From NCBI GenBank assembly GCA_002104905.1, contig MCFE01000215.1, positions 62,001 through 126,000 on the forward strand: 64,000 bases of DNA, in the 5' to 3' direction. This stretch comes from Basidiobolus meristosporus CBS 931.73. Lineage: Eukaryota > Fungi > Basidiobolomycota. The notes below the pieces were generated by a model that was not told the origin of the DNA, did not search any database, and saw only the letters and a program-made list of their open reading frames with translations. Shown here piece by piece: positions 1 to 59,721 of the stretch; position 1 is the first letter of the stretch, and each line of letters opens with the position of its first letter. Made by a program: the position numbers and the translations under genes.

Positions 1-162
1 CACATGCTCTTGGGACCTTCCTTAACCTATTCTACGTGTTTGTTATGCCAAGACCATGTAAAAGTATAAATACTACTTTTACATTCAATAAATCATTAAG
101 TGAAACCACATAATCTACTTGTTCTCCCAATCACTTCCAATATCTCCAAGACTCTTACAACA
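1..162 (+). repeat. Copia A 5' LTR (partial, window edge)
   Basis: Matches the 3' half of LTR 8824-9173 and the reverse complement of the copy B LTRs; ends ACAACA; contains TATAAATA and AATAAA. Confidence 0.9.
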
Positions 163-177
163 GGTTATGAGCCCCAA
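163..177 (+). promoter_or_regulatory. Primer-binding site GGTTATGAGCCCCAA (copia/Hemivirus-type, half-tRNA-iMet priming)
   Basis: Directly abuts the LTR end; resembles the Drosophila copia PBS GGTTATGGGCCCA. Confidence 0.75.
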
Positions 178-193
178 GCTGTCACTCTCTGCA

Positions 194-3003: not shown

Positions 3004-3351
3004 TGCTGTAAGAGTCTTGGAGATATTGGAAGTGATTTGGAGAACAAGTAGATTATGTGGTTTTCACTTAATGATTTATTGAATGTAAAAGTAGTATTTA
3101 TACTTTTACCATGTCTTGGCATATACAAACACGTAGAATAGGTTAAGGAAGGTCCCAAGAACATGTGTGCAAAGTTTGGGGCTGTTTGGACAACTTTGAG
3201 AATTTACATGTTCTGGGTACCTGGTATTTTGGTGAAAATATTCTAAGTAAATCCCGACAAGGAATTTGGTCAGTATTCTCTAGGATTTGAAGGTAATGAT
3301 CTAAGTGACTAAGTTAGGTGAATATTTAGGTGGAATACAATTTTTACAACA
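3004..3351 (-). repeat. Copia B 3' LTR (about 348 bp)
   Basis: Direct repeat of 7339-7689 with a few mismatches; preceded on the minus strand by PPT AGCTGAGTGGGAG. Confidence 0.93.
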
Positions 3352-3362
3352 CTCCCACTCAG

Positions 3363-7307: not shown

Positions 7308-7338
7308 TGCAGAGAGTGACAGCTTGGGGCTCATAACC

Positions 7339-7689
7339 TGTTGTAAGAGTCTTGGAGATATTGGAAGTGATTTGGAGAACAAGTAGATTATGTGGTTTTC
7401 ACTTAATGATTTATTGAATGTAAAAGTAGTATTTATACTTTTACCATGGTCTTGGCATTACAAACACGTAGAATAGGTTAAGGAAGGTCCCAAGAACATG
7501 TGTGCAAAGTTTGGGGCTGTTTGGACAACTTTGAGAATTTACATGTTCTGGGTACCTGGTATTTTGGTGAAAATATTCTAAGTAAATCCCGACAAGGAAT
7601 TTGGTCAGTATTCTCTAGGATTTGAAGGTAATGATCTAAGTGACTAAGTTAGGGGAATATTTAGGTGGAATTACGAATTTTTTACAACA
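7339..7689 (-). repeat. Copia B 5' LTR (about 351 bp)
   Basis: Direct repeat of 3004-3351, followed on the minus strand by PBS GGTTATGAGCCC. Confidence 0.93.
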
Positions 7690-7694
7690 TCTAT

Positions 7695-8812
7695 TTGGTC
7701 TTAAACAATCACTGAGAGCCTGGAGTTGCAAGATAGATTCTTATTTGGAATCTTTGGGTGCCAAAAGGAGTAATGCTGACTATAGTATATACTATAAGCC
7801 AGATAGAGCAAACCCAGTTCTATTAGCTCTATATGTGGATGATCTTATTATTGCTACCAAATACCTAGAAACATTAGAAGAGACTAAATCCAGCCTATCT
7901 GAGAAGTTCAAGATGTCCAATCTAGGAGAGCTCAGTTACTACTTAGGGATTAAGTTCTCCATAGGCAGAAATACCCAGACTATTACCTTAAGCCAATTCA
8001 AGTATACTCAAGATATACTAAAGAAGTACCAAATGGAAGACAGTAAACTGGCAGTTACCCCAATGGAGACAAACCTTAACTTGGACAAAACTCAACCAAG
8101 TCAAGAGAGCTTGGTGCCATCTGAAAGCCCTGACTTTCCTTGTCAATCTATGATTGGCAGTCTGATGCATATCATGCTTGGAACATGTCCAGCTATCTCA
8201 TATTCAGTGGGAGTTGTCACCCAGAGTAATCAGAACTATGGATCTGATCATATTGCAGCAGTTGAGAAAATTTTTGGATACCTAAAAGGAACTGCTGATA
8301 TCTGCCTAAGATACACTTAAAATGACTCAGAACAAGACCTTGTGGGATACTCTGATGCTGATTGGGAGCAAAATTTGGAAGACAGAAGATCCACCACAGG
8401 ATACACCTTTCTTTACTGTCAAGAAGCAATTTCATGGAACTCAAGAAAGTAACCAACCATAGCACTTTCTACCACAGAGGCAGAGTATGTGGCAGCCTGT
8501 AAAGCTACAAAAGAAGCAATGTGGCTAAGAAAGCATTTTACAGACTTAGGCCTATGTCAAAAAATGCCTATTACTTTATTTCAAGATAATCAAGGATATA
8601 TACAATCAGGTAGATATCCAACTTTTCATGCTAGAACTAAGCACATAGAGATTAGACATCCTTTCATATGTGAAGCTATAGGGAATAACTTAGTTAGCTT
8701 AGTTTACTGTCCTTCAGATGAAATGATTGCTGACATATTTACCGAACCATTTGCTAGATACAAGATTGAATATCTTGGGTCAAAATTAGGACTAGTCAGT
8801 ATGAACATTTAG
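7695..8812 (+). pseudogene. Copia A RT/RNase H, 3' part, with stops
   Basis: ORFs 7640-8320 and 8489-8812 match the RT/RNH of copy B with many substitutions and internal stops. Confidence 0.9.
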
Positions 8813-8823
8813 CTGAGTGGGAG

Positions 8824-9173
8824 TGTTGTAAAAACTTGTAATTCCACCCAAATATTCACCTAACTTAGCCACTTAGATCATGATCTTCAAATCCTACAGA
8901 ATACTGACCAGATTCCTTGTTGGGATTTACTTTGAGAATTTTCATGTTCTGGGTACCTGGTATTTTGGTGAAAATATTCTAAGTTGTTCAGACAGCCCCA
9001 AACTTTGCACACATGCTCTTGGGACCTTCCTTAACCTATTCTATGTGTTTGTTATGCCAGGACAGTGTAAAAGTATAAATACTACTTTTACATTCAATAA
9101 ATCATTAAGAGAAGATCCTTATAATCTACTTGTTCTCCTAATCACTTCCAATATCTCCAAGACTCTTACAACA
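8824..9173 (+). repeat. Copia A 3' LTR
   Basis: TGTTGTA...ACAACA, preceded by PPT GCTGAGTGGGAG. Confidence 0.9.
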
Positions 9174-9282
9174 GCAACTGAGTTCTCCTAGTTCAGACAT
9201 CTTGAACTCCTTAGATTGACTGGATCCAGTCTCTTCCAATGTTTCTACATCATTGGTGGCTATAATAAGATAACCCATATAT

Positions 9283-9803
9283 TGTTATGAATAGACACAA
9301 GGCAGGAGGAAAAGCTAGGCACGGCAGGAAAGGACTTAGGTGTGGACCATCAAGGCAAGGCAGGATTCAAGGCAAGGCTGTTTATTCAAGACCTGTGTTT
9401 ATCAGACTGAGGAATACTTAAGGGGGGATAGGACTATATATACTTTTTGGCTATATTGATGCCGAGAGATGTTAGCTAATACTAATGGGGTTGTGGGGTG
9501 AGGCACAGCAATGGTGCTGGGGATAATGACATAGATGACACGGTACTGAGACAGGATGGGAAAATGGATTGGGTCACCTGATCATGTGACTAAGTCATGT
9601 GACCTGGTATTTCCATATATGGTACTGGACTATAAAAAATACGATGGAAAGCTTCCATGGAATGTTCCATTGTGTAACAATGGTTTGGAATGGTCAGGAA
9701 CTTTCTGGAAGGTGGTAGAAGGTTCCGGAAGGAATCTCTTAGAAATTGAGCTGGGAAGCTGAAACTTGGCATGGGTGTTCATGGTTGTCATGTGATCATG
9801 ACA
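9283..9803 (-). repeat. Chromovirus 3' LTR
   Basis: TG..CA ends, offset 5381 from the 5' LTR, no differences seen. Confidence 0.96.
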
Positions 9804-12800
9804 CTATTCTCCTCTTCCAGGCGGAGCTCTGTTTCCCTTTGGGGCAGGTTTTGCAGGATATTGTTGGTGGAACTGGGTAACTAGTTCTTGACAATTAGTG
9901 AGATGTGTAGCTGGTTCCCATGTTTGGTCACTTGGGCCATAACCAATCCAGTCTACTAAGTAGTACAGCTTTGACCGGATATACTTGGAGTCTAGAATCT
10001 GTTTAACTTCAAATTCTTGATGTTGGTCAACCTGGATAGCTTGGGGCTTTGCTTCTTGCCAGTTTGGCAATGTGTTCCTACAATACGGCTCCAGGAGGGA
10101 CACATGGAAAGTATCATGGATTTTCATACTTGCTGGTAACTGTAGCTGATATACTATAGGGCTAAGCTTCTTCTTGATCTTGAAGGGACCAAGTTTCTTG
10201 AAATCCAACTTGTCACAAGGGCGGTTGGTGCTGATGTTTCTTCTGAGCAACCATACAGAATCTCCTTCATTAAGATCAGGGCTGGGATGCCGTTTTAGAT
10301 TGGCAAATTTCTTGTAGCTTTCCTGAGCTAAGGATAGCTCTTCCTTGAGGGTGTTCTGGATGTCCTGGATTGCTTGGGCATGTTCAGCCGCATGTGGGCT
10401 CATTGGGTTTGTTGGAATCTGGATATCAAACTGAGGGTGGAATCCATAGTTTGCATAGAATGGTGTAAAACCGGTTGCACTATGGCTTGAGTTGTTGTAG
10501 GCAAACTCAGCAACAGGGAGTAGATCAACCCAATTGTCTTGCTGGTAATTGATATAGCACCGGAGGTATTGCTCCAGAATCTGGTTGATTCTTTCAGTCT
10601 GGCCATCAGACTGTGGATGGAAGGCAGTAGAGAGCTTGACTTGAACACCAAGGTATTGCATGAAGTGTTTCCAAAACTTGGACACAAACTGTGGGCCTCT
10701 ATCTGACACAATATCACTGGGGATACCATGAAGGCGGAAAATATTCTTCAGGACTAAAGCAGCAGTTTCTTTTGCATCAGTGTTCTTACAGCAAGGGATG
10801 AAGTGAGCCATCTTGGTCAGCCGGTCAGCCACTACAAGTATAGTATTGAAGCCACATGACTCAGGGAGGTCAGTAATGAAGTCCATAGATATAGATCTCC
10901 ATTGGTGTTCTGGGATAGGCAGGGGTTGAAGAAGTCCATAGGGCTGGTGTCTGGCTGGTTTTGCACGGTTGCAAATATCACAAGTCAGAATGTACTCTTT
11001 GATAAGAGTTATCATTCTAGGCCACCAGAAATCTCTTTTGATAGCATTCAAGGTTTTGGCAGTACCAAAGTGGCCTGCAGCCATTGAATCATGCCGAGAC
11101 TTAATGATGTCTAGCTGGGTGGCAAGGTCTGGGACATAAAGCTGCTGCTTGTGGTAGATGAGGTTGTTTACCAAATGCAGGTTCTGGATGTTTGGGAACT
11201 TGGGAGGGGGCCCAACTGGGGATTCCAGATATTTCTTGATGGTGCTGGAAGTCATATCAGAGGCTTGGGATTCTGATATCCTTACTAGGAATGAAGGGAT
11301 GACAAGACTTGAGGACTGGGTGGCAAGAATCTCAAAATGTTTCTTGCTCAGCAATGGGTGTTCCATTTGCCGACAGGCATCATCTCCCTCTTCCAGGGCA
11401 TATTCCTTTTTTCTGGACAGGGCATCAGGCTTTCCTTGCTTTGCACCAGGTCTATAGGTGATAGTAAAGTCAAAGCTGGACAGGAAGAGTGACCATCTGG
11501 CTTGTCTCCGGTTTAGTACTTTGGAAGTTGTAAAGTACTCAAGGTTCTTATGGTCACAGAAGACTTTGATATTGTGTTTTGCACCGTCCAGGTAGTGTCT
11601 CCATTGCTCAAAGGCTACAATGATGGCAAGCAACTCCTTATCATAGATATCATAGTTGATCTCTGCAGGGGAAAACTTCCGAGAGTAGAATGCAATGGGG
11701 TGCAACACATTGTCCTCATCATACTGGGAGAGTATGGCACCAAGGGCAAAATCAGAAGCATCAGTCTCCACTATGAATTGCTTCTCAAGGTCAGGGTGGG
11801 CAAGCAGGGGGGCCTTCAGGAAAGATTTCTTGAGTTGGTTGAATGAGCTGGATTGCTCCTCATTCCAGGCAAAAGGTGTGTTCTTCTGGGTAAGCTTTGT
11901 CAGAGGGGTGACTATCTTGGAGTAGTTGGCTATGAACCTGCGATAGAAGTTGGCAAATCCCAGGAAGGATTGTACTTCCTTGACTGAGCTTGGAGTTTTC
12001 CAGGACTGGACTGAGTCAACTTTCTCTGGGTCCATTCTTGTTCCCTCAGGGCTGATGAGGTAACCCAGAAATTCTACTTCTCTCTGGTCAAATTCACACT
12101 TCTCTAACTTGGCATAGAGACCGGCAGAGTCTAGTTTTCTCAATACTTTCTTGACATGTTCATCATGTTCATCTTGGCTCTTGGAGTATATGAGAATATC
12201 ATCAAGGTAGATTACCACAAACTGGTCAAGGTATTTGCGGAATATGTCATTCATGAGGTGTTGAAACACAGCAGGGGCATTGGTGAGGCCAAATGGCATT
12301 ACTTTGTACTCAAAGTGACCATATCTTGTGCGAAAGGCAGTTTTCCATTCATCACCAGGCTTGATTCTGACAAGATTGTAAGCTCCTCTCAAGTCTATCT
12401 TGGTGAAGACTTGGGCAGCAGATAGCTGATCCAACAGTGTGTTGATCAGGGGCAGGGGGTAGCGGTTCTTGACTGTGATCTTATTCAAAGCACGGTAGTC
12501 CACACACATTCTGAGGGTGCCATCCTTCTTCTTGACAAAGAGGATTGGGGCTCCAGCAGGTGATTTGGAGTGCTGAATAAAACCCTTCTGGAGGTTTTCT
12601 TGAATATAACCATGGAGTTCTTTCAACTCCGGCTGGGAGAGGTTATATATTGGGCCAAATGGAGGGACTTTTCCATCTTCAAGGTCAATAGGGCAGTCAT
12701 AAGGCCGATGGTCAGGGAGGAGTTCTGCATTCTTCTTGTCAAAGACATGGGCAAACTCTTGGTACTTGGCTGGTATAGTTGCTGAGGGGGCTCCTTCAGC

Positions 12801-13352
12801 TGGCAAGGTATCTTGGGCTGTTGAACTGTTGGCAACCGTCTTTTCACGGTTATCAGGGTCTGGAGATTTCATGGAGTTGACTTGGTGGGATCTGGTGAAT
12901 GACAGGATCTTGGATTTCCAATCAATACTCGGATTGTGGTAGCTCAGCCATGAGCTTCCAAGCACAATAGGATAGTGTGGTGAGTTGATGATGTTGAAGG
13001 CGATTCTTTCTTGGTGGGCAGTACTGGATAGCTGGAGTAAGCATGTTTCATGGGTAACAGCACCAGAGGAGAGTGATCTTCCATCAATAACTTCTACTTG
13101 GACTGGACAGGATTTCAAGGTAACAGGAATAGAGTGCTTCTGGACAAAGGCTTGGTCAATGAAACAGGATGAAGCACCGGAATCAATCAGGGCTAGGGCT
13201 GGGACAGGACTGGAGTCAGGGATCTGGATTTTGACAGGCATTCTCAAGGACTGGATAGATTTTGTGGCAAAGGAAGATTCTTGTATATGCTGGATTTTCA
13301 TGGGTGGGTCCAGTTGCAAGCCTGTCAGTGCAACTGGACATTGGAGTTTCCC
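9804..13352 (-). CDS. Chromovirus Pol (PR-RT-RNH-IN-chromodomain), reached by -1 frameshift from gag
   Basis: [76 protein letters not shown] and chromodomain [11 protein letters not shown]...YLVDWIGY...TWEP; the frame is open back to the slippery site. Confidence 0.95.
13308..13352 (-). promoter_or_regulatory. -1 programmed ribosomal frameshift signal (G GGA AAC + 6-nt spacer + 11-bp stem-loop)
   Basis: Slippery heptamer at 13352-13346 in the gag frame; GTCCAGTTGCA/TGCAACTGGAC perfect stem with 10-nt loop; the -1 frame runs into pol. Confidence 0.88.
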
Positions 13353-14257
13353 GACAGATCTGGATCAGGTTGGTTGCTGGAGGACTGCATCAGCTTGAAG
13401 CTGGACTTCTTGTTGGGGCAGGACTTGGCAAAGTGACCTGGTTGGCCACAGTATAGACAGAGGTTGGCTTGTTGACATCTGGACTTTTCACTCTTTGATA
13501 GTTTCCTGTATTTGGCACTATCAATCTGCATAGGATCTTCTGGAGTGACTTGGGGAGCAGGAGGGGCTGGGACTGCAACAGGAATGTGTCTTTGACGGTT
13601 CTTTTGCTTCTTCTGGAATAGTCTGTTATCACACCGGATTGCTTGGTGCATAGCTTCAACCAATGTATCTGGATCTGGGAGTGTGAGTAGCAGATCACAA
13701 ACTTCATCATTGAGGCCATCTTGGAATTGGCTAATCAAGGCTGCTTGACCCCAGGAGCTGAGGTCACTGGAGAGTTGTCGGAATTCTGAGGCATAGACTG
13801 ATGCTGGTTTGTTCCCTTGCTTGAGGGTCTTGATCTTGTTGGCAGCAGTTCTGGCTTGGTCAAGGTTACCAAATGTTAGCTCCATTTCAGTGAGGAAAGC
13901 TTGGTAGTCTCTGAGGAGGGGAGAGTTGGTCTCCACTAATGGGGAGAACCACTTGAGAGCTGTACCAGTAAGCAGGTTGGAGATGAAACCAACTTTGGCC
14001 TGGTCAGTGGGGTACCGGTTGGGCTGGAGTGCAAGATTGTTCTTCACCATGTTGATGAAGCCACGGAATTCATTCTGAGAGCCATTGAACTTGGTAGCAG
14101 GAGTATACTTGGGTTCTTGGTAGACTGGGACATGGCTAGTTTGCTGGACACTTTGGTTCTGGAACTGAGCAAGAGTGTTTCTGAGGTCTGCATGGTCTTG
14201 CTGCAGTTGGGTAAAGGCAGCCATGAGCTGGGCAAAGTTCAGCTCTAGGTTGGACAT
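13325..14257 (-). CDS. Chromovirus Gag (retrotrans_gag-like capsid + CCHC knuckle)
   Basis: Likely start accATG MSNLEL at 14257; [50 protein letters not shown]. Confidence 0.93.
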
Positions 14258-14284
14258 GGTAGCAGAGGAAGGCGGATGAACTTG

Positions 14285-14600
14285 CAAGGAATACTGGAAT
14301 ATACTAAACTAGATTGTGGGTTTGTAAAGCCACTAGTATGTCAAGAATACAACTATTGAGCCACAATCCCCAACTTAAATAAGTTAGCGTCACTTCAGAA
14401 GGTACTGGTTTCAATGTCCTTTGATAGAGTATTGTACTAAAGCTTCCAATACTGTAACAACTGTAAACTCCACCAGCAGGGTAATAAAGTGAATGCAGCT
14501 TTGACCAATAGTTTTACAAAGATAAAGTATCTTTGCCTTTATAGGACAAGACTAGGGAAAGATGATGGGTGATACTTATGGTGAGTATTCCTTTTACAAG
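14285..14600 (-). ncRNA. Putative structured cis-acting RNA module in the chromovirus 5' leader, shared with the Gypsy-2 LTRs
   Basis: Homologous to 21455-21790, 27564-27900 and 30410-30740; closing helix AACTATTG/CAATAGTT; hairpin with compensatory changes and an AAGCTT loop. Confidence 0.6.
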
Positions 14601-14650
14601 TTTTCTTCAAACTTTGGGCAGAAGGCAGGGATCCACAGGTAAGTCAGGGG

Positions 14651-14661
14651 AGTCTGATAAA
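14651..14661 (-). promoter_or_regulatory. Self-priming PBS TTTATCAGACT (Tf1-type)
   Basis: Exactly complementary to AGTCTGATAAA at 14789-14779 in the LTR, 34 nt downstream of TATATATA (14823-14816). Confidence 0.85.
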
Positions 14662-14663
14662 AC

Positions 14664-15184
14664 TGTTATGAATAGACACAAGGCAGGAGGAAAAGCTAGG
14701 CACGGCAGGAAAGGACTTAGGTGTGGACCATCAAGGCAAGGCAGGATTCAAGGCAAGGCTGTTTATTCAAGACCTGTGTTTATCAGACTGAGGAATACTT
14801 AAGGGGGGATAGGACTATATATACTTTTTGGCTATATTGATGCCGAGAGATGTTAGCTAATACTAATGGGGTTGTGGGGTGAGGCACAGCAATGGTGCTG
14901 GGGATAATGACATAGATGACACGGTACTGAGACAGGATGGGAAAATGGATTGGGTCACCTGATCATGTGACTAAGTCATGTGACCTGGTATTTCCATATA
15001 TGGTACTGGACTATAAAAAATACGATGGAAAGCTTCCATGGAATGTTCCATTGTGTAACAATGGTTTGGAATGGTCAGGAACTTTCTGGAAGGTGGTAGA
15101 AGGTTCCGGAAGGAATCTCTTAGAAATTGAGCTGGGAAGCTGAAACTTGGCATGGGTGTTCATGGTTGTCATGTGATCATGACA
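14664..15184 (-). repeat. Chromovirus 5' LTR
   Basis: Identical direct repeat of 9283-9803; TATA box, predicted TSS at 14789, AATAAA just downstream. Confidence 0.96.
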
Positions 15185-17605
15185 TATATAGAGCTAATAG
15201 AACTGGATTTGCTCTATCTGGCTTATAGTATATACCATAGTCAGCATTACTCCTTTTGACACTCAAAGATTTCAAATAAGAATTTTTCTTGCAATTCCAG
15301 GCTCTTGGGTATTGCTTAAGACCTTATAGTGACTTTTTTAGCTTTCAGACCAAATAGAGGGTTATCTTGGTCAACAAAACCATCAGGCTGGTCCATATAG
15401 ACATGCTAATCAAGCTCTCCATTCAAAAATGCAGCTTTTACATTCATATGATGAATAAAAACTTATATTTGGCTGCAAATGCCAATATTAGTCTGAAGGA
15501 ATTAAACCTGGCTTCCAGTGCAAAGGTCTCAGTATAGTCAAGTCCTTTTGTTTGAGAGTATCCTTTGGCCACATGTCTTACTTTACATCTTTCAATTGTA
15601 CCATCAGCCTTGTATTTTGTCTTGAAGACACATCAGCATCCAATTGATTTTTGGCTGCTTAGTGACTTGACTAAGTCCCAAGTTTGATTTTCCACCAGGG
15701 CCTGATATTCCTCAATCATTGTAGATCTCCAAAACTTTGTCTGAGGGATATTTAGGGTCTCTTTTACAGTCTGGGGCTCATCAATATGGACTGAATAGGC
15801 ATAGGCTAAGTTTGTACCCTCATTGATATAGTGATCTGGGCTATTTCTTTTCTGATTAAATCTACAGGCATTTGATACTGGAATGATCACTTCTGGGATA
15901 TTCCTGGGCACTGATTCAGGCTGAACCACAGTTGTAGAGTCCTCTGGAGTGAAAAAATCTTCATTGTTTTGCTCTGGTTCAATCCCAACAACTGGTGGAC
16001 TTGAGATCAGATTTTTGTCATCATCTGATGTCATTTTTTGTGAAAATTTTAAATTTTCATCAAACAGCACATCACTAGCCTTCATTAGCCTCTTTACTTT
16101 GGTATTGTAGAGTCTGTATGCTTTACTCTCATTGCAGTAACCTAAAAATATGCATTTTACATTTTTTGGCTCGTATTTTGACTGATTGCTGGGCAGTTTC
16201 TTGGCATATGCTGTACACCCAAATATTCTGAGATGTTCTGCACTTGATCTGCACCCATACCATGCCTCAAATGGAGTAGAATCACAAAGTATTATGATAA
16301 AACTCCTACTTTTATGGTATACAGCTGTGGAAATCAATTCCGCTTAAAATCATAGGATAATTTTGATCTTGGAACATAGATCTTGCTATGGCAATTACTG
16401 ATCTGTTAGCCAATCCTGCTACTCCATTTGCTGTGGGGAGTATGGTACTGTAGTCTCTTGCTTTATCCCATGAGTTTTGCAGCAGTGGTTGAAGAGTTTT
16501 GAGGTATATTCTCCACCATTGTCAGAGAGTATTTTCTTGATTTTTTCACTGGTCTCTCTCTCCACCATGGCTTTAAGTTCCCAGAGGTTGGACAGAACTT
16601 CTTCCTTTCTATCCATGAAGTAAACCCATGTGTATCTTGCATAATCATCAATAAAAGTGATGCAATGCTTCATCCCACTTAAGGATAAATTTTGCATAAC
16701 TCCTCACAGATCTGAGTGAACTAGATCTAATTTTTTCTTAGTTTTGATTAATCTAGAGCTCTTGAATGGTTGTCTGGCTTGTTTCCCATGTATGCAGGCT
16801 TCAAAGTGCTCCAAACTAGCTGGGTGATCAATTTTTACTCCAGAAAATAGCTGATCTTGGATCATTTTGGGCAAATAATCCAAATTGATGTGCCCAAATC
16901 TCCTGTACCTAAGTATAGGTGTTTCTTCATTTAAGTTACTTATATTGGCTTCCAGATATGATGGAATATAAGTCAACCTGTATATATTCTGATCTCTGAT
17001 ACCCAAAGCAATATGGGCTCCATTTTGATCAGTGATCCTTCATCCAGAATTGTCAAAGCTGAAACTAAGTCCCTCTGCTGTGGCCTTGCTTACAGATAGT
17101 AGGTTCTTGCTATTTCTGGTACATACAGTACCTCTTTAGAGGTCAGTGTATGGCTTCCTTCACTGCTTCTAGGTCTACTAGGATAGTTCATTCTCCCACT
17201 GCATCAAGTGTTCTATCATCACCCATGAAAACCTTCTAGATTGGAATTTCTTGATAGTGGGTAAAAAGTTCTTTTTGGAGTGTAAAGTGTTGAGATGCCC
17301 CAGAGTCAGTGTACCACATGTGAGAATCCTTGTTTGTGGTCATACTCAGTGCAGATATGAATAGTCTATCTTCAGTTGTTGCAGTATTTCCATATTCAGG
17401 CTTCTTTTGCTGATTTTCTCTCTTTTTGAGACACCAGTCTGATGTGTGTTCTTTCTTTTGCAGTAGTTGCAAAACAGGTTGCTATTGTCTTTGTAGGGTC
17501 TTGGGTACCTCCTTTGTTGGTTCCCATTGCTTATTGCAGCATTTTCTTCTTCCTGCTTATTGGCACTTGATATTCTTAATTCTTCATCCAGGAGCCTTCC
17601 ATCCA

Positions 17606-21359: not shown

Positions 21360-22437
21360 TGTGGTGGTGTATAAGTCCAAAGGGCAAAATACGGCCAACA
21401 CTTCTCAAGTGTGAATGTGTGTGGGGTGTTCACTGGGTGCGATAACCTCTGGCAAAAGCTTGCTAGGAATACTGGGTCTTTTATCTAATCTAATGTGATG
21501 GGGGATAAAGCCTCAAGCTTGTCAAGGGAAAACTATTGAACTACAATCCCCAACTTAGTTGGCGTCTTAACAAAAGTTTATAATGGCTTCGACGTCCTTT
21601 GAGATGACAATGTACTAAAGCTTCCAAAGTCAAAACAACTGTAAACTCCACCAACAGGGACTTGATAAGAATGCAGCTTTGACCAATAGTTACAAAGACT
21701 GAAAAGTATCTTTGCCTGTACAAGAACAAACTTGGGAAAACAAACAATATAATAAAATATACCTACTCTGAGTATTCCTCACAAGTAGTGCCTCCAAGGT
21801 CAGTTGGCTGTCAGCGCGGTTTCCTGGGAGTATCGTCAGGTCTGAGTCAGAAAATAGTGGTAATAGGTAGCGGTGATCTCACTAATCAATAAGTTGGAAT
21901 ATTGGAAGAGGGATGATTTATTTTAAGGGATAGCCTCCCTTATATACTTTTTTGCTGCTCAATTTCTTGCTAGAAAATACTTTCCGGAAGTTTCCAGAAG
22001 GTAGTAGACAACCAATCATGTCTTTGTGTACTAAAAATAGCGCAAATTCTTGGCGGATTGTTCCATGAGACATAGTAGTACCTAGCCAATCAGGTATTGG
22101 TAACATGAAACCTCTGTGTCATGTGGTTGCCTCTTATGGTAGTGAGATGGGGGATTATGAAACCAGGATGGTCACGTGACATGGGCACTGTTGGGGTACT
22201 TGCCTTATAAGGTAACTATCTTATCTTGGCATCTCGGCAAGGAATAAGAATAGCTTGTGCAATGGGTTAATAGGGACAAATAGTTTGTCAGGTTGCATAG
22301 TAATAATCACATAGACAAAAATAGGAAATATTGCAAATTTGGGATGATAATAATATGGGCGGGGTAATCCTTTTTAGGGAAGTGAATGCATAAGAATGAG
22401 CACATCTGCCTGTGGGTGTCACTGTGACCCCACTACA
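21360..22437 (-). repeat. Gypsy-2 3' LTR
   Basis: TGTGGTGG...CTACA on the + strand; offset 6109 from the other LTR. Confidence 0.94.
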
Positions 22438-22476
22438 TCCACCCCCCTCTCAGCTTTGAACTCAGGTCAAAGCAAA

Positions 22477-25400
22477 CTAAATGTGATGTGCGAAATTCCG
22501 GTGCTTGAATAGCTTAAGTCGGTTTCCTGCCACAGGTGCTCTTAGCGGTGTTCCATCAAGTTCAGACAGGTAGTAGCTTCCATTTCCAATCACCTTAGAG
22601 ACAATATATGGGCCAGACCACTTATTGTCAAATTTGCGACTCCACTGCTTGTCTAAAGTGGAATCATAGAGCAGTACTGGATCTCCTTGCAGTAATGGCT
22701 TTGGTCTAAGGCTATGTGACTTGTCAAATGGTTCCTTGTTCTGAAGTCTTGTCTCTTTGAGTTTACAGCTGCTTGGGTAATATCAAGTTCATGGTGATCA
22801 AGCTGTTTGATGCGTGTAGTCAGTAGTTCTTCTGTACTCATTGTAGTTCTCCACTCTAGCATGTTCCAGGATATTGAGTCAAGCTCTATGGGAAGAACGC
22901 AATCATGTCCGTAAAGCAATTTGAATGGAGATAGACCTGTGCTGCGCTTTGTAGTGATTCTATCTGCCCAGAGTGCTAGATGAAGTTGTGTAGGCCACTG
23001 TAGTGTCATGTTGTTGCAGCTCTTGACCAGGGAGTTAACTAACGGGCCATGGCCTCTTTCAACCATTCCATTGGCCTGTGGGTGATAAGCGGTAGTGAAA
23101 GCAATATGAATCTTGTATTGTGAGCAGAGTTCCTGGATCAAATTTGAAGTCATTTCTCCTCGGTCAGCAACAAACTGGCTGATGCAGCCAAATCTGCATA
23201 TTATATCTTCAAGAATAAATCTCCATATGGTGTGGCTTTTGTTATTGGGTAGGGCTCGAGCTTCTACCCACCCACTCAGATCATCTCTGGCAACAACAAG
23301 GTACTTCTTGGTTCCAGCAGTTGGCATGTGGACCAGGTCAATGCCAACCTTCTGCCATAGACAAGGTGTGTAGGTTGGATGGAGCGGCTCCTCATATCTC
23401 TTGGTTGACCTTCTTTGGCAAATGTCACAAGATTCAACAAAGTGTTGGACATCATGATACATATGCTCCCAGTAGTATCTACTGGAAACAACATTGTAAG
23501 TGGCATCTCTGCCTCTATGACCACCGGGTCTTCCTTCATGAAGGCTTGACATAATAGTCAGTTGTTCTTGGGGCTCAACTATAACTCTTCTTGGTGTCTG
23601 TCCAGGCTTTACTCGTTTGAAGAGGAGGCCATCTTTTATGTAGAAATGATGGGCCTTCTTCCTGAGCTTTCTGAAATCATGTGGGCTCATTCCTGGTGGC
23701 TTCTCTAAGGTTCTCAGATAGTCTTGAATGGTGTTCCACGTAGAGTTGCTGGGCTTCTTCACGTGTAGTTGCCGGATTTCTGCATCAATTATGTCATCAA
23801 AGTCAGGGTCCATATCTTCAGACAACTGTGGTCCCTTCCTGGAGAGTGCATCAGCCACAACATTTGTCTTGCCAGGGATATGTCTGACCTCAAAGTCAAA
23901 CATTTTCAGCCATGCCATCCACCGATTTGTGGCATCATCAGGTAGATCAGGTTTGTTGATCATTCCTATAAGTGGCTTAGCATCTGTCTCCAGGATGAAA
24001 TGTGTCATGTAGAGTTGTGACTTCAGCTTTCTCAGCATCTTCACAACTCCTAGTAGCTCTCTCTTAATCTGTGAGTATCTTTGTTCTCTAGGAGAGAAGA
24101 GGCAGCTCTCATATCTGCAGGCATAGCGGTTACCATCTTCATCATCTTGGCCAAGTAGTGCTCCAGCTCCTACAGGGCTTGCATCCACCGTCAAGATAGG
24201 TGGGCATTCAGTGTTCTGATAGTCAAGAGGTCTCAGAACTGGTGGAGATATTAAGGCCTCTTTTAGTAATTGCATGGCTTCTTCTTGCTCTTCTCCCCAG
24301 TTAAATGGGGCATTCTTTCTCTGTAGTCGGTAGATTGGTTCTGCTATCTCAGAAAATCTTGGGATCCAGATCCTAAAGAACCCACAAGCTGCCACAAAGC
24401 CACGAGCTTGTGTTAGATTTGTGGGGGTAGGCCAGTTGCATATCTTTTGTGTCTTGGAGTCTCCGGGTGAACGGCCAAAGGTGTTGCATTTTTGTCCAAC
24501 AATGGATATCTCTGATACACCAAAGCTGCTTTTCTCACCACTGATGGTGAGTCCAGCTTCTTCAATGGCTCCTAATATGGCATCATTGTCTGAAATATGG
24601 TCATAGACAAACTTTCTTACTCCAGGCATAACTTCAGTTGTGTCCCGGAGTTTTGGTCCTTTGATGCCTATGTCATCAACAAAGACAGCAAGTTTCTCAG
24701 GTATAAACCGGTAGAGCACATTTACCATGCACCTCTGGAACTGAGCCACGGAGTTTGTTGCCCCTTGGCTAAGTCTTGTCATTCTTAACAGTCCAAATGG
24801 TGTCTGGAGTGCAAACATATCTCTTGATGTCTCATCTAGGGGAATCTGGTCGTATCCTGAGTAGAGATCATATGTTGAGTAGATGGAGTGACCACTAAAG
24901 CTTTCTGCAAAGTCATCAATAGACGGAGGTATTGCGGCATCTCTGATAGTGACGGCATTTGCAGGTTGCATGTCTTGAATGAATCGGAGCTTCCCATTCT
25001 TCTTTTTGGTCACAAACCATCTGTTAGCATAAGGTCCATGGCAAGGTTCTAGGATACCAGCTTCAATCTTCTTCTTAAGTAGGTCATGCACATCAGCTTG
25101 GAGTCCTCTAGGCAGTGGGTAAGGTTTAAATGACCAGGGTGTGTGGGGCACTGTATGAATTTTGATAGGTTTTTCAACTGATGTCTTTAAGAGTCCCATC
25201 TCCTTGTCATTATATGAGAAAACCTTATCATGCCTTTTCAGGGTTTCTTCAAATAGTAAGATCTCCTCCGGTGTTAGGTTTCCATCACCAATGATAAGTT
25301 GCTTAAGTCTCTCAGGTGTAAGTCGTATATCTTCTGGTGTTCCTTCTGGTGGTCTGATGTAATCAGCAGGTCGAGACCCATCAGTTAAAGGCGTAAGTGA

Positions 25401-27328
25401 TGGTCTAATCTTCTGTTCCACTGTCTTGTATTTTGTGCGAACCATAGCTGTCTGCTCCTGTATACCTAATGAGTAGCTCCAACTGTTAGGGTGTATACTG
25501 TCAGGCTCCTCATCTTCTTCTATAACAAGATGTGTCTTCTGGCAAGCGGTATGTGTCCTCTTATTGTTGGGTGTTACCCCACAAAATGTTGACTGTAGTC
25601 CTGGGTTGGATCCTTGTATAGTGTACCACACTGACCCATCAGAATAGTTGGTAGTTGTAGCCTTAGTACTGGTCTCCCATGGTCTGCCTAACAGAAGGTC
25701 AAAGTTTGCCTTCTGGCAGATAAAGAGGGGAAGCCAGACCTTGATTCCTTGTACCTCAATAGGGAACTTGTGCACTACACCATAGAGTGGGCTAGACCCT
25801 GAGTTTGCATCAGTCATGTTCCATCCAATATCTCTATCAACAGGCAGTAGCTCCTTGCTTCTAAGTGTCTTCCAGAAGTCTAGCGGCATAACACAAATCT
25901 CTGAACCACTGTCAATATGGCAGTCAACAGGGTCATCATATATATACCCTTTCACCACAGCAGTTGCAACTGAGTAAAAGGTCTTGTATTTGGTAGCGGT
26001 GTCATCCTTTTTGTGGTCTTCATGGTTTGTCTGGATTATATGGGTGTCCATATGTTCAACAGCTTGTCTTCTTGTTCTAAGCTGCTCATCAAAGGTCTTC
26101 CTAACAGACGGTGATACACTCATGATTTCTCCAACTGACAAAGTGAGGTTCTGCTTCAGTAGTTTCTCAGTAATCAATTGGGGGCTTGAGTAGCCAGCTA
26201 TCTTTGAGGTCATCTGAAAGTGAGGTAATGGGTCTTGAGTAGGCAGTGTTCCAGGCCTCTTGTCAATAATAACCTCAGGCTCTTCAAATCGTGGTCTTCT
26301 AAGGATGGGTTTGACAGGTTCTTCAGGAAGGTGTCTCTTAGTAGCAAAGGTGTCTACTTCGTATTTTCTGTTGTCAGGGCTGTTTGGACTCACTGTATGA
26401 GTCTCAATAGGGGCATCAACAGTAATCTTTCTAGTTGCTGAGTCAGACTTCTGGAAAAGGGCTCTCATTCCGCCTCTTCGGAAATTAGTGGGAATCCTTT
26501 TTCCTTCCTTATCAGCAAGCATTCCATCAGCATCAAACTGTACTGTTCCTTCTCTAAGTAGCTGGCTAAGCTCTGAGCATTCACGTCTGGCATGCTGAGT
26601 AGAGTCACACCAAATGCAGTGTCTAGGCAAAGCTCTTTGGCCCTCAGTAGCTACCTCAGCTGAGCCGTTAACCTTGAGGGCTAGCTTTTGTAGCTGTTCA
26701 GCAAGTTGGTCAATTCTGTCGGTAGTGTAGGTCTGATTGTCAGCAACAGCACTCTTTAGCTCCTTGGTTGGCTGGTCTGGCAGATTAGATGTCAAGAGTC
26801 TCATAAAGGTAGAAGTTTGCTTTGCCTCTAGGAGTACACGTTTCATCTCTGCAAAGCAAGGAATGCCAGACTTGTCATCCTTGGCTGCATGTAGGTCAAC
26901 TTTCCTTGCCAACTCCTGGGGAAGCCCTTGTGCAAGGTAAAGTGTCATGGTAAACTCAGTTATTGCCTGGGACTCTAGGAGTGGCTTGGCCATATCTTCA
27001 TATTGTTGAATGAACTCTTCAAGTGGTAGCTTGGAGAGTCCCATCCTTCCAAAGTGTCTGAGGTCCTCAATTCCATAGTATATCTGGGGTCTGCCATACT
27101 CGGTCTGAAGGTAGGTCTTCATTAAGGTCCAGTCAGTCAGAATGTCTCCTTGTCTGAGAAGCTTAGTAGTAATATCATCGTGCAGTAGTAGGGGAAGTCT
27201 TCAGCCATTTCTTGTTCAGATAGGCTGCACATCTTGCAGAGCTTCTCCCATTTGTATATGAAGCTCTCCACATTCTTTCCATCAAACTGTGGGGCTCCAT
27301 GTGAGAGTGGTAACGGCATAGAGTTCAT
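22477..27328 (-). CDS. Gypsy-2 Gag-Pol (Gag-CCHC-PR-RT-RNH-IN-GPY/F) with two 1-nt frameshifts (about 27180 and about 22768)
   Basis: MNSMPL start; CIWCDSTQHARREC, HIDSGSE, YDLYSGYDQI, FVDDIGIKG, VDASPVG, GHRGRDAT/CDIC, GIDLV, ADRG, NGMVERGH; alternative frames restore DDITTKLLRQGD and the KWSGPY tail ending at 22477. Confidence 0.9.
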
Positions 27329-27447
27329 TTTGGGTAGGTAGGTTGGTGTTGTAGTCTTGATAATATTGGTAGTCTTGTTTCAATAAATGGGTAACGGCTC
27401 AAATCTTCAGGTAAATCTTGTAGGGTCCTAGGGAGCTTGTATGAACC

Positions 27448-27464
27448 CCCCACGTTGGGTGCCA
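27448..27464 (-). promoter_or_regulatory. PBS TGGCACCCAACGTGGGG (tRNA-Lys type)
   Basis: One CG>CA change from the classic tRNA-Lys1,2 PBS TGGCGCCCAACGTGGGG; 4 nt from the LTR. Confidence 0.85.
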
Positions 27465-27468
27465 AATA

Positions 27469-28545
27469 TGTGGTGGTGTATAAGTCCAAAGGGCAAAATA
27501 CGGCCAACACTTCTCAAGTGTGAATGTGTGTGGGGTGTTCACTGGGTGCGATAACCTCTGGCAAAAGCTTGCTAGGAATACTGGGTCTTTTATCTAATCT
27601 AATGTGATGGGGGATAAAGCCTCAAGCTTGTCAAGGGAAAACTATTGAACTACAATCCCCAACTTAGTTGGCGTCTTAACAAAAGTTTATAATGGCTTCG
27701 ACGTCCTTTGAGATGACAATGTACTAAAGCTTCCAAAGTCAAAACAACTGTAAACTCCACCAACAGGGACTTGATAAGAATGCAGCTTTGACCAATAGTT
27801 ACAAAGACTGAAAAGTATCTTTGCCTGTACAAGAACAAACTTGGGAAAACAAACAATATAATAAAATATACCTACTCTGAGTATTCCTCACAAGTAGTGC
27901 CTCCAAGGTCAGTTGGCTGTCAGCGCGGTTTCCTGGGAGTATCGTCAGGTCTGAGTCAGAAAATAGTGGTAATAGGTAGCGGTGATCTCACTAATCAATA
28001 AGTTGGAATATTGGAAGAGGGATGATTTATTTTAAGGGATAGCCTCCCTTATATACTTTTTTTGCTGCTCAATTTCTTGCTAGAAAATACTTTCCGGAAG
28101 TTTCCAGAAGGTAGTAGACAACCAATCATGTCTTTGTGTACTAAAAATAGCGCAAATTCTTGGCGGATTGTTCCATGAGACATAGTAGTACCTAGCCAAT
28201 CAGGTAGTGGTAACATGAAACCTCTGTGTCATGTGGTTGCCTCTTATGGTAGTGAGATGGGGATTATGAAACCAGGATGGTCACGTGACATGGGCACTGT
28301 TGGGGTACTTGCCTTATAAGGTAACTATCTTATCTTGGCATCTCGGCAAGGAATAAGAATAGCTTGTGCAATGGGGTAATAGGGACTAATAGTTTGTCAG
28401 GTTGCATAGTAATAATCACATAGACAAAATAGGAAATATTGCAAATTTGGGATGATAATAATATAGGCGGGGTAATCCTTTTTAGGGAAGTGAATGCATA
28501 AGAATGAGCACATCTGCCTGTGGGTGTCACTGTGACCCCACTACA
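27469..28545 (-). repeat. Gypsy-2 5' LTR
   Basis: Near-identical repeat of 21360-22437. Confidence 0.94.
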
Positions 28546-31384
28546 GCGGTGTTGTATAAGTCCAAACTGAGCTATAAGAGCTACTAGGAGATAAACTTGG
28601 GCAACTTAAGTCTGAACTTGCAAAAGATGATATATAACAGAGAGTATTTTTGTGTCATGTGAACTATATAGATTCAAGACAAAAAAAGATGTAGTAGAAG
28701 CCCATGCAAAAGGTATGCACAAAGATAAACAAAAGCTGTATAGCAATGTTGTTGAACTACTCTCCCAACTGCAGTTGCAACTGAGTAACAGGTCTTATAC
28801 CTAGTACCCTCATCATCCTTTTGGTGGTGTTAGTGGCTTGTTGGAATTATATGAGTATCCATGTACTCAATGGCTTGTTGTCTTGTTCTAAGCTGCTCAT
28901 TAAAGGTCTTCCTAATAGATGGGGATACACTCATGATCTCTCCAACCAGCAAAGTGGAGGTTTTGTTTCAACCACTTTCTCAATGATCAGATGAGGGCTT
29001 GAGTAGCTTGCAATCTTTGAGGTCATCTGAAAGTGAGGTAATGGTTCTTGGGTGGTCAGCATACTGGGCCTCATGTCAATGGCAACTTCAGGCTCTTCAG
29101 ATTGTGGTATTATGAGGATGTGTTTGACAGCTTCTTCAAGAAGGTGTCTTTTGGCAGCAAAGGCATCAACTTCATATTGTCTGTTGTCAGGACTGCTTGA
29201 GCTCACTGTAAGACTCCCAATAGGGGCATCAACTGTAATCTTTCTGGTTGCTGAGTTGGAAATCTGGCAAAGGGCTCTCATACCTCCTCATTGGAAATTG
29301 GTGGGGATCCTTCTTCCTTCCATGTCGGCAAGCATTCCATCAGCATCCAACTGTACAGTTTCTTCTTTGAGCTGTTGACTAAGCTTAGAGTATTCTCTTT
29401 GGGCATGCTGAGTGGAATTACACCTGATGCAGTGTCTGGGCCAAGGTTTTTGGCTCTCAGTAGTTATTTCAACTGAGCCATCAATCTTGAGGGCTAGCTT
29501 TTGCGGCTGTTTGGCAAGTAGGTGATTCTTTTGGTAGTATAGGTTTGTTTGTCAGCAACAGCACTCCTTCACTCCTTGCTCAGCTGGTCTGGCAGATTAG
29601 ACTTCCGGAGTCTCATAAAGATGGACATCTGTTTTGCTTCTAGGAGAACATGTCTCATCTCTGCAAAGCATGGAATGCTGGGCTTGTCACCCTTGGCTGC
29701 ATGTATGTCCACTTTTTTTGTCATGTCTTGGGGAAGTCCTTGTGCAAGGTAAAGTGCCATGGTAAACTCAGTAATAGCTTGGGAATCTAGGAGTGGCTTG
29801 GCCATGTCTTCATACTGCCAAATGAACTCTACATGTGGTTGCTTGGAAAGTCCAGTTCTTCTAAAGTGGCTCAGATCTTCAATTCCATAGCTTATTGGGG
29901 GTCTACCATACTTGGCTTGTAGGTAGATCTTCATTAAGCCCAGTCAGTGAGTATTTTCCCTGTCTGAGAAGCTTGGTGGTATCTTTAGTGCAGTGGTAGG
30001 GAATTCTTCAACCATTTCTTGTTCAGAGAGGCTGCACATCTTGCAGAGCTTCTCCCACTCAAATAAGAAGCTTTCCACATTCTTCCCATCAAACTCTGGG
30101 GCTCTGTGTGAGTGTGGTAATGGCACAGAATTCATTCTGTGTAGGTAGGTTGGTGTTGTAATCTTGATAATATTGGTAATCTCCTTACAATAAGTGTGTA
30201 ATGGCTCAAATCTTGGGGTAAATCTTGTTGGGTCCTAAGGAGCTTGTATGGGCCCCACATGTTGGGTGCTAAATATGTGGTAGAGTATAGTGTAAAGGAG
30301 AAATATCTCATATGTTGTAGAGTATAAGTGTAAAGGAGAAATATCTCCAACACTTCTCAAGAGTTTTGTGTGTGGGGTGTTCACTTGGTGCAATAACCTC
30401 TGGCAAAAGCTTGCCAGGAATACTTTGGTTCTGTCTCTAATCTAATGTGATGGGGAATAAAGCTACAAGCTTGTCAAGGGAAAACTATTGAGCTACAATC
30501 TCCATGTTAGTTGGCATCTTAACAAAAGTATTAGCTGGGTTCAGTATCCTTTGAGATGACAGTGTACTAAAGCTTTCAAAGTCAAAACAGCTGTAAACTC
30601 CTCCAGCAGGGACTTTATTAGAATGCAGCTGTAGTCAATAGTTACAAAGACAGAAAAGTATCTTTGCCTGTGCAAGAACAAACTCAAGAAAGAATCAAAT
30701 ACAACAAAACATACCTAATCTGAGTATTCCTCACAAGTAGTGCTTCTATGGTCAGTTGGCTGTCAGTGCAGCTTCCTGGGAGTGTCCTGTAGTCTGGAAT
30801 TGGAAGTTCAGGTAGCAGTAGGTAGCAGTGATCACACCAATCAACAAGTTAGTATACTAATAATAGGGATGATAATTTATTGTGGAGGGATTGCCTCCCT
30901 TATATACTTTTCTCACTGGTTAGGTGATTACTAATCAAGGTATTCCAGAAGGTTCCAGTGGTCAAATAGAAATATTATTGACATCCAAATGAGCTAAGAA
31001 TGCTCTAAGTAGGTGCCAGAAGGTTCTAAGAGGCACAGCACCCCCAACCAATCAGGGATCAATATATTGGAGCCTGTGTAACATAGGAATACCATATATG
31101 GTATCAAAATGGTAAGGATAGTGACACAGCTTGATCATGTGTTACAGGTACTGGTTTGGATACCTGCCTAACATAGAAGCACTTACATCCAGTAATCTAA
31201 CTTAAAGTGAGGGACAACTTATGCAATAAGGTAAGCAGGTGTGATAGTCAGCCAGCTTATGGGATAATACTGATCAAGTAAGACAAATGGGATAAAACTA
31301 ATATAAGGGTAGTAGAAAAATAGGGAAGTAGAAACTATGGGAATGAGCACATCTGTCAGTGGATGTCACTGTGACCCCGCTTCA
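28546..31384 (-). mobile_element. Older, truncated Gypsy-2 relative: LTR fragment 28546-28772, gag remnant about 28775-30135, degenerate PBS, diverged LTR 30276-31384
   Basis: ORFs 28931-29281, 29569-29934 and 29944-30135 are paralogous to Gypsy-2 gag; LTR ends and the RNA module are conserved while the U3 middle has diverged. Confidence 0.85.
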
Positions 31385-38394: not shown

Positions 38395-38815
38395 AATGTA
38401 TTTAATCACTTTTATTGATGGCTAACAAAATACAAGTAGGTTTGGCTCAGCACAAGAAAAAAAGTGGCTCTGTCTTAGTTCTGGGAGCTTACAATCAGAG
38501 TGGAGCAAGAAATTGGCAAAAAAATCTAGTAAATAGGCTCTGTCAACTGTAGGGAATATACCTCTAAACACCTCATTGACTTCTGCATGATTTGTAAGGT
38601 AAAGCAAGAGACTTCTGTACCATGCTCTTCATATCCAAATGCAGTGGCAGAATGTGTAGACAGATAAATCACTGATATAGTAAGATCTGTGAGTCATGAC
38701 CAAAAATACTCCAGTGATTTTTTGCAGAATCAGTTACTGTAGCTGTATATGTCAAAATTGGAGCTATAGCTGAATCCTTGTAATCCTGCTCCACTTGAGG
38801 CATGGTACATATATC

Positions 38816-58477: not shown

Positions 58478-58484
58478 AGGGTTA

Positions 58485-59660: not shown

Positions 59661-59721
59661 GGGGGGGAGACAGTCACCAACAGGTGAAATCTTTATTTCA
59701 GTTGAAACAAAGAAGCCAGCG

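What the first reader, a model, noticed from the sequence alone, without database searches (positions are those of the whole stretch)
14285..14600. About 300-nt structured module shared between a chromovirus leader and the LTR of an unrelated Gypsy lineage, with compensatory base changes
Seen: 14285-14600 aligns with 21455-21790, 27564-27900 and 30410-30740, although the two elements differ in priming (self vs tRNA-Lys), gag-pol strategy and protein sequence. Sense-strand helices: P1 AACTATTG/CAATAGTT closing about 160 nt; P2 AGCTGC with GTGGCT, GTAGTT or GTAGCT (G-U pairs favour the sense strand); hairpin AGTATTG/CAATACT versus TGACTTTG/CATTGTCA with three compensatory pairs around a near-invariant loop; CCAAC/GTTGG versus CTAACTT/AAGTTGG. 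In the chromovirus it ends about 25 nt before the gag ATG. I do not recognise it as a known Rfam family. Inference: an exchanged cis-acting RNA (packaging signal, IRES-like element or ribozyme).
Basis: partly seen in the sequence, partly recalled or inferred. Interest (0 to 1): 0.75.

Follow-up and report, generated by a model that had tools for sequence, protein, structure and literature searches.

The report
RNA module swapped between fungal retrotransposons
Two distantly related retrotransposon families of a Basidiobolus-like fungus share one 320-base non-coding stretch near the start of their RNA that is predicted to fold into a self-closed domain, and it likely acts as a genome packaging and pairing signal that one family likely captured from the other.

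Summary
An intact chromovirus (A) and a non-chromo Ty3/Gypsy family (B, D; Pol 24% identical to A) share a 73%-identical segment of about 320 nt (E 1e-36). In A it fills the leader between the self-priming site and the gag ATG; in B and D it lies in the LTR, upstream of the PBS. Six of 43 core pairs change on both sides (1 of 500 shuffles), family variants mostly keep pairing, and the apical loop matches the AGUA/GAA bulged-G motif and holds a palindrome. Contigs of a second isolate carry both layouts, so it is not a one-off recombinant. No Rfam or ribozyme match. Limits: three distinct sequences, no RNA data, no homologue outside this fungus, and the inner arm is not the lowest-energy fold in the broken copies B and D. 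Best reading: a captured packaging/dimerisation domain (0.4); translation or export control are rivals. The scan's notes hold no earlier report of this module.

The parts
14279..14602 (-). Shared module in chromovirus A, filling the leader between the self-priming site and gag
   Evidence: model equals the MFE: -78.8 vs -78.9 kcal/mol
14584..14602 (-). P0 5' strand (closing helix, 10 bp plus 7 bp outer part)
   Evidence: probability 0.86 in the whole leader
14279..14295 (-). P0 3' strand; A/B homology ends here, 21 nt before the gag ATG
14333..14555 (-). Long-range helix Pa (14555-14545 with 14342-14333); one double change against B
14516..14536 (-). Hairpin Pb; an alternative helix Px (14577-14571 with 14531-14525) would exclude it
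14351..14513 (-). Core domain closed by P1 and P2, with arm P3-P4-P5 and hairpin P6
14390..14492 (-).
14428..14453 (-). P5 hairpin: three adjacent double changes; 12-nt cap with GAA/AGUA (bulged-G-type) motif and a GAAGCUUU palindrome
27568..27894 (-). Module in the 5' LTR of element B (inferred U5, upstream of the PBS)
   Evidence: TATA 28055 and AATAAA 28031
21459..21785 (-). Identical module copy in the 3' LTR of B
30410..30737 (-). Module in the LTR of D, a decayed, truncated relative of B
9283..15184 (-). Element A: chromovirus, identical 521-bp LTRs, TATAT target duplication, gag 14257-13325, pol frame 13364-9804 with chromodomain
14630..14663 (-). Self-priming site of A, complementary to 14789-14775 (inferred RNA 5' end)
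14717..14731 (-). Only upstream AUG in A's leader: a 4-codon uORF in the LTR
21360..28545 (-). Element B: non-chromo Ty3/Gypsy, 1.08-kb LTRs 99.35% identical, tRNA-type PBS near 27463, gag ATG 27328, reading frame broken near 27190 and 22653
28760..31384 (-). Element D: one LTR (30313-31384) plus a truncated, multiply broken gag region, about 81% identical to B

Best explanation
The segment is a roughly 320-nt RNA domain, predicted to fold as one unit closed by a terminal helix, that sits in the 5' leader region of two distantly related Ty3/Gypsy lineages and likely serves as their packaging and dimerisation signal, likely captured whole by the chromovirus from the U5 of the other lineage. Shown: the shared sequence, its two positions, the end of homology at the closing helix, retained pairing, the AUG-poor leaders and the presence of both layouts in a second isolate. 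Inferred: the RNA folds into P0 > Pa > (Pb, P1-P2 > P3-P4-irregular 17x17 helix-P5); the exposed palindrome in the P5 cap starts a kissing contact between two genomes; the purine-rich irregular helix and bulged-G-type cap bind the CCHC nucleocapsid of Gag; and the same RNA is scanned open when used as mRNA, so it would alternate between a translated and a packaged state. The capture would be a double template switch by reverse transcriptase in a particle holding both RNAs.
For: Structure: 6 of 43 core pairs change on both sides (1 of 500 shuffles as high; slid controls 0-1) and 89% of cells pair. A's own MFE pairs are broken less in B and D than when substitutions are permuted (13 vs 22.1, p 0.003; 19 vs 30.8, p 0.0004). 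In each element the best partner of P0's 5' strand is the module's own 3' end (-17.7, -17.9, -20.5 vs next -11.5, -12.8, -16.3). Of the 40 listed variants (of 95) among family contigs laid on B, 8 fall on model helices: 7 keep, restore or extend a pair and 1 breaks a terminal pair (one search read). Boundary: no homology 3' of P0 (815 and 694 of 1000 shuffles as good). Persistence: contigs at about 84-85% identity join module and chromovirus PBS/LTR in both isolates (records 3, 11, 20) and module and B-type LTR end in the second isolate (records 17, 25). Function: position in the 5' leader on either side of the PBS; a self-complementary 8-mer in the apical loop of all three sequences whose only change keeps the duplex; Ty3 dimerises through a palindrome in a hairpin apex (PMC11381356, passages); a CCHC knuckle in A's Gag (Pfam) and a CCHC pattern seen by eye in B's. 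Leaders: 0 ATG in 699 nt of B (8.8 expected) and 1 in 528 nt of A (7.5 expected).
Against: Only three distinct sequences; the structure was derived from them; the tool warns that related sequences can beat all shuffles. With a MAFFT alignment the A-to-B test is weaker (broken pairs p 0.065, double changes p 0.015), and 2 of 16 control windows also gave p below 0.01 for broken pairs. The antisense strand scores too when B or D is the reference (p 0.0004, 0.002). Folding z-scores are modest (-2.0, -1.35, -1.5). In B and D the model lies 7.6 and 11.7 kcal/mol above the MFE, and P3, P5 and P6 have probability 0.14 or less in their whole leaders. B-versus-D changes show no excess pairing. The double changes come as two 3-bp blocks, which single template-switch events could make. 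About 10% of random 12-mers self-pair as well as the loop. Nothing here tests Gag binding or dimerisation. The direction of capture is unrooted.
Confidence: 0.4

Rival explanations
1. The domain controls translation initiation: it recruits ribosomes or factors (IRES-like or enhancer) and delivers them near the gag AUG, useful to A because its capped 5' end is tied up in the self-priming duplex.
For: In A it ends 21 nt before an ACC-ATG start; the 5' end is predicted paired (0.95); a 4-codon uORF precedes it; bulged-G motifs occur in some viral IRES domains (recalled).
Against: In B the AUG is 240 nt further on, beyond the PBS; leaders purged of AUG throughout suggest ordinary scanning; no Rfam IRES match.
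Confidence: 0.2
2. It is a host-factor-binding export or localisation element like the constitutive transport elements of simple retroviruses, which work regardless of position.
For: It sits on different sides of the PBS in the two lineages; the most invariant letters lie in a symmetric purine-rich internal loop, as in such elements (recalled).
Against: No sequence match to any Rfam family; known examples lie mostly near the 3' end (recalled).
Confidence: 0.12
3. It is functional only in the B lineage's U5 (or not at all) and is a passenger in A, picked up by recombination from an unsampled B subfamily close to it.
For: Contigs at about 89% identity to A's core with unaligned flanks exist in the same sample (records 2 and 10), so the true donor may be closer than B; the statistics are modest.
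Against: A, an intact element with identical LTRs, has the best-formed helices; the module is nearly its whole leader; homology stops at the closing helix; the layout persists in copies about 16% apart and in a second isolate.
Confidence: 0.13
4. It is an unrecognised self-cleaving or self-splicing ribozyme.
For: Ribozymes occur in 5' UTRs of fungal RNA viruses and in retrotransposons and can drive translation (PMC13725137, abstract and passages); tertiary-type motifs are present.
Against: No Rfam match at E 10; no hammerhead core on either strand; a cut in A's leader would separate the priming site from the genome, and a cut in B's U5 would remove R (inference).
Confidence: 0.05
5. It is a small inverted-repeat DNA element (MITE-like) inserted in both families, or it hosts a small spliceosomal intron (GUA...AG, 39-47 nt) that the fold regulates.
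For: P0 is an imperfect terminal inverted repeat; GUA and AG|G frame a pyrimidine-rich stretch in all three sequences.
Against: No target duplication at the ends (by eye); the repeat keeps a U-G pair in all three, which suits RNA rather than DNA; no free-standing copy in the window; donor positions +5/+6 vary and the A intron would be 39 nt.
Confidence: 0.06

Closest known systems
Ty3 and Ty1 5' dimerisation/packaging regions; retroviral Psi/DIS
   Same: 5'-proximal structured RNA with a short palindrome in a hairpin apex (Ty3 PAL6; PMC11381356, passages; Ty1 papers PMC5454406 and PMC6844567 seen as listings only).
   Different: Ty3's dimerisation palindrome lies in the gag region of one family; here a wholly non-coding 320-nt closed domain is shared by lineages with 24% Pol identity and lies on opposite sides of the PBS. 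No sequence match; function untested.
Inter-element recombination and LTR swapping in LTR retrotransposons
   Same: Exchange of non-coding sequence between co-resident families, explained by cross-packaging and template switching (PMC6894440, section 9).
   Different: That review says exchange between very distant or unrelated elements must be rare, with only a handful of cases; here an internal structured unit, not a whole LTR, is shared, and at a different position.
Shared non-coding regulatory sequences of grass pararetroviruses
   Same: Different reverse-transcribing species keep a common non-coding region through recombination (PMC5491270, abstract).
   Different: Those partnerships involve non-autonomous viruses; A is autonomous and its module is 23-29% diverged from B and D, with compensatory changes rather than homogenisation.
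Sarcin-ricin / bulged-G motif
   Same: A and B have GAA opposite AGUA, D has AAA opposite AGUA; both are among the four sequences derived for the motif (PMC1865062, passages).
   Different: Here it would be capped by a 5-nt loop, not by a further pair and a GNRA tetraloop; geometry untested.
Tf1/sushi-type self-priming chromoviruses and Ylt1-like/SN_1006 fungal Gypsy elements
   Same: A has a chromodomain and a self-priming site; B is a non-chromo fungal Ty3/Gypsy, the other main fungal group (PMC2864245, PMC3248453, passages).
   Different: B's assignment to Ylt1 was not tested (no reference sequences); the passages read mention no such leader domain.

Membership tests
Any Rfam 15 family | Match to a covariance model | tested here: not met
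   0 hits at E<=10 for 14000-15300; two chance-level hits (17.9 and 15.3 bits against cut-offs 90 and 60) for 27400-28600
Retroelement dimerisation/packaging signal (Psi/DIS) | Lies in the 5' region of genomic RNA | tested here: met
   Leader of A; LTR of B and D downstream of TATA and AATAAA; the U5 assignment is inferred
Retroelement dimerisation/packaging signal (Psi/DIS) | Conserved palindrome in an apical loop | tested here: met
   8-nt self-duplex in A, B and D, but about 10% of random 12-mers do as well
Retroelement dimerisation/packaging signal (Psi/DIS) | Drives dimerisation, Gag binding and encapsidation | not testable with these tools
   needs experiment
IRES | Structured domain ending close to the start codon | tested here: inconclusive
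   21 nt in A, 240 nt in B
IRES | Cap-independent initiation | not testable with these tools
   needs reporter assay
Hammerhead ribozyme | CUGANGA catalytic core | tested here: not met
   absent on both strands of A, B and D
HDV-like, twister and other small ribozymes; group I/II introns | Match to their Rfam models | tested here: not met
MITE | Terminal inverted repeats with target duplication and free-standing copies | tested here: not met
   imperfect inverted repeat present; no duplication seen; no solo copy in the window; rest of the genome not available
Sarcin-ricin / bulged-G motif | AGUA opposite GAA or AAA, stacked on a helix | tested here: met
   the pattern also occurs at 7 other places in 128 kb of both strands
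Sarcin-ricin / bulged-G motif | S-turn geometry | not testable with these tools
   needs probing or a structure
Chromovirus (element A) | Chromodomain at the end of integrase | tested here: met
   PF00385, E 1e-13
Ylt1-like lineage (element B) | RT/integrase clade membership | not tested
   no reference sequence available; closest proteins 45-55% identical, mostly unnamed, named ones from Riccia and Rozella

The most novel reading that the evidence does not exclude
A portable RNA packaging domain, recognised independently of Gag lineage and priming mode, lets two unrelated autonomous Gypsy lineages pair and package each other's genomes; it switches between two exclusive helices (Pb and Px) to choose translation or packaging and displays a ribosome-like bulged-G cap.
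Probability: 0.15. Interest if true: 0.75.

Novelty: new variant of a known kind. Interest (0 to 1): 0.5.

Why it matters
Cis-acting RNA signals are mapped for very few LTR retrotransposons (mainly Ty1 and Ty3), and exchange between distant lineages is described as rare. A natural swap of one self-contained folded domain between a self-priming chromovirus and a tRNA-primed lineage marks out the functional unit, supplies compensatory pairs, and makes a direct test possible of whether packaging signals are portable across Gag lineages. It also adds a candidate structured RNA absent from Rfam.

Tried and rejected
Homologue hunting: no whole genome is held; a pattern scan of viral contigs gave 0; a pattern scan of metagenomes gave 2 chance hits inside bacterial genes; RT searches in viral contigs gave none for A or B; the scan's earlier notes hold nothing like this sequence. 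No RNA holder was listed, so expression, splicing and RNA ends are open. Parts without contig cover in the second isolate (A 14108-14311; low cover of B upstream of 27952) are not counted as evidence. 5'-3' cyclisation idea: A's LTR has an exact 9-mer copy of P0's 3' strand just before the inferred start site and B has a look-alike in U3, but B's site is not among the 8 best partners and D lacks it: rejected as a shared mechanism. Homology upstream of P0: 42 of 1000 shuffles as good against B, 262 of 1000 against D: not accepted. Ribosome shunting of the caulimovirus type: the uORF ends 115 nt before the stem in A and B has none: rejected. Captured tRNA: none in the window. Paper searches for a described element of this kind listed nothing matching; the library lacks most subscription journals and no supplements were read.

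Full report
Setting. The window is a nest of retrotransposons in a fungus of, or close to, the genus Basidiobolus: its malic enzyme is 89% identical to that of B. ranarum, 83-84% to B. meristosporus and at most 66% to other named fungi listed. Element A (9283-15184, minus strand) has identical 521-bp LTRs, a TATAT target duplication, an open gag and an overlapping open pol with a chromodomain, and a site after the LTR that pairs with the inferred RNA 5' end (-14 kcal/mol). It is an intact, recently inserted, self-priming chromovirus. Element B (21360-28545) has 1.08-kb LTRs 99.35% identical, a tRNA-type PBS (Lys by recall), one long gag-pol frame broken twice, and no chromodomain hit. D (28760-31384) is a decayed relative of B, 81% identical, with CpG almost gone. 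A and B Pol proteins are 24% identical over 760 aa. B's closest database proteins are 45-55% identical and mostly unnamed; fungal Gypsy elements fall mainly into chromoviruses and Ylt1-like elements (PMC2864245 and PMC3248453, passages), but I could not test B's membership.

Observation. A 14281-14560 matches both B LTRs at 72.9% (E 1.5e-36) and D at 71.4%. Only these four copies exist in the window and the two B copies are identical. In A the segment is most of the leader and ends 21 nt before the gag ATG at 14257. In B and D it lies in the LTR, downstream of a conserved TATA and AATAAA pair (28055/28031; 30906/30881), so it is probably in U5, upstream of the PBS and 240 nt from the gag ATG. 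U3/R/U5 borders need RNA data (PMC3601003, passages).

A terminal helix (P0; 9 invariant pairs plus 5 outer pairs with a U-G in all three) closes the whole unit of about 320 nt. Its 5' strand has no better partner in any of the three elements. Homology between A and B/D stops at its 3' end (815 and 694 of 1000 shuffles align as well downstream) and is at best weak upstream (42 and 262 of 1000). Inside are a 9-10 bp long-range helix (Pa, one double change), a hairpin (Pb), P1, P2, a helix P3 with three more double changes, P4, a symmetric 17x17 purine-rich loop, P5 and P6. The P5 cap reads GAA...AGUA in A and B and AAA...AGUA in D; both are among four sequences derived for the sarcin-ricin motif (PMC1865062, passages). 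The pattern occurs at 7 other places in 128 kb, so it is suggestive, not proof. The same cap holds an 8-nt self-complementary stretch, which about 10% of random 12-mers match in energy.

How strong is the structure? For the 43-pair core, 89% of cells pair, and 6 pairs change on both sides (1 of 500 shuffles; slid controls 0-1), but the structure came from these three sequences and the shuffles ignore relatedness. A less circular test takes A's MFE alone and permutes the other sequence's substitutions. With a pairwise aligner broken pairs are 13 against 22.1 for B (p 0.003) and 19 against 30.8 for D (p 0.0004), double changes p 0.07 and 0.02. With MAFFT, which misplaces two helices, broken pairs give p 0.065 and 0.06 and double changes p 0.015 and 0.085. 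Against this: 2 of 16 control tests in the B/D coding region also reached p below 0.01, B versus D shows no excess, the antisense strand scores when B or D is the reference, and z-scores are -2.0, -1.35 and -1.5. The model equals the MFE in A, but lies 7.6 and 11.7 kcal/mol above it in the broken copies B and D, whose P3, P5 and P6 are not favoured. Independent support comes from family contigs laid on B (40 of 95 variants listed, phase not given). Eight listed variants fall on model helices: 27649 and 27651 keep P2, 27792 keeps P1, 27809 extends Pb, 27691 strengthens P4, 27692 with 27763 turn B's U-U mismatch in P4 into a standard pair, and 27696 breaks P4's terminal pair. The common variant at 27867 completes a 10-bp alternative helix (Px), which is 7 bp in A and excludes Pb. 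This hints at two states and is untested. Invariant G-U pairs in P0, Pb and P2 favour the sense strand.

Is it a one-off? No. Contigs about 84-85% identical join the module to the chromovirus priming site or LTR in the best-holding sample (records 3 and 11) and in a second isolate that shares next to no 31-mers with A (record 20). The second isolate also has contigs running from the module to the B-type LTR end (records 17 and 25). These are two samples and contigs only. Contigs 89% identical to A's core with unaligned flanks (records 2 and 10) leave room for a donor closer than B. No homologue was found outside this fungus, in collections that hold few fungi.

Mechanism. Both leaders are purged of AUG: 0 in 699 nt of B (8.8 expected; 3 of 2534 windows are as low) and 1 in 528 nt of A (7.5 expected; 21 of 2540), while decayed D has 5. 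That points to scanned, translated leaders and argues against a shunted or purely IRES-driven leader. Self-cleavage would damage the replication template at either position; no ribozyme model matches, although ribozymes in 5' UTRs do exist (PMC13725137, abstract and passages). What both elements need at the 5' end, regardless of priming mode, is dimerisation and packaging. Ty3 does this with a palindrome at a hairpin apex (PMC11381356, passages). I therefore favour a packaging/dimerisation domain (0.4), opened for translation and closed by P0 for packaging, ahead of translation control (0.2), a passenger (0.13), export (0.12), MITE or intron (0.06) and ribozyme (0.05). That the segment is a selected RNA fold in at least one lineage I put near 0.85. 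Capture by template switching in a mixed particle is the standard route, and exchange between unrelated elements is called rare (PMC6894440, section 9). The direction B-lineage to A is a parsimony guess: contig cover of the B family runs beyond P0 on both sides, whereas A shares only the closed unit. It is unrooted.

Verdict. A real, apparently undescribed structured leader domain shared by two distant Ty3/Gypsy lineages; a new variant of a known kind (cis-acting retroelement RNA, inter-element exchange), with function inferred only. Searches listed no description of it. Interest 0.5.

Noticed in passing
window 14791-14799 and 9410-9418: A's LTR carries an exact 9-nt copy of P0's 3' strand directly before the inferred start site; at the RNA 3' end it could pair with the leader next to R. 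Not shared by B or D.
   Followed up: partly
window 45716-47402 and 51503-53189: Two malic enzyme genes without apparent introns, 91% identical, in inverted orientation in a GC-rich island among transposons; B. meristosporus also has two close copies in the hit list.
   Followed up: partly
window 56158-62491: A LINE-like RT/endonuclease region (59722-62491) next to 460-bp direct repeats (56158-56617, 59661-60120; 98.9%) and about 450-bp tandem units (57520-59085).
   Followed up: no
window 28546-28780: LTR end of a more distant B-like family abutting B; it shares the terminal motif but the module model does not detect it, so some relatives may lack or have lost the module.
   Followed up: partly
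window 1-9282, 15175-17602, 36864-43962, 54273-56036: Several nested Ty1/Copia copies 70-97% identical; the one at 3363-7457 has an open frame; A is inserted into one of them.
   Followed up: no
window 37667-38398 and 39467-40187: About 730-bp self-complementary (foldback) elements, two related copies.
   Followed up: no
window 27496-27565 and 27895-27951: The B family appears conserved beyond P0 on both sides in the second isolate, suggesting further U5 structure not shared with A.
   Followed up: no
window 13337-13343: G GGA AAC slippery heptamer at the gag/pol overlap of A, fitting a -1 frameshift.
   Followed up: partly
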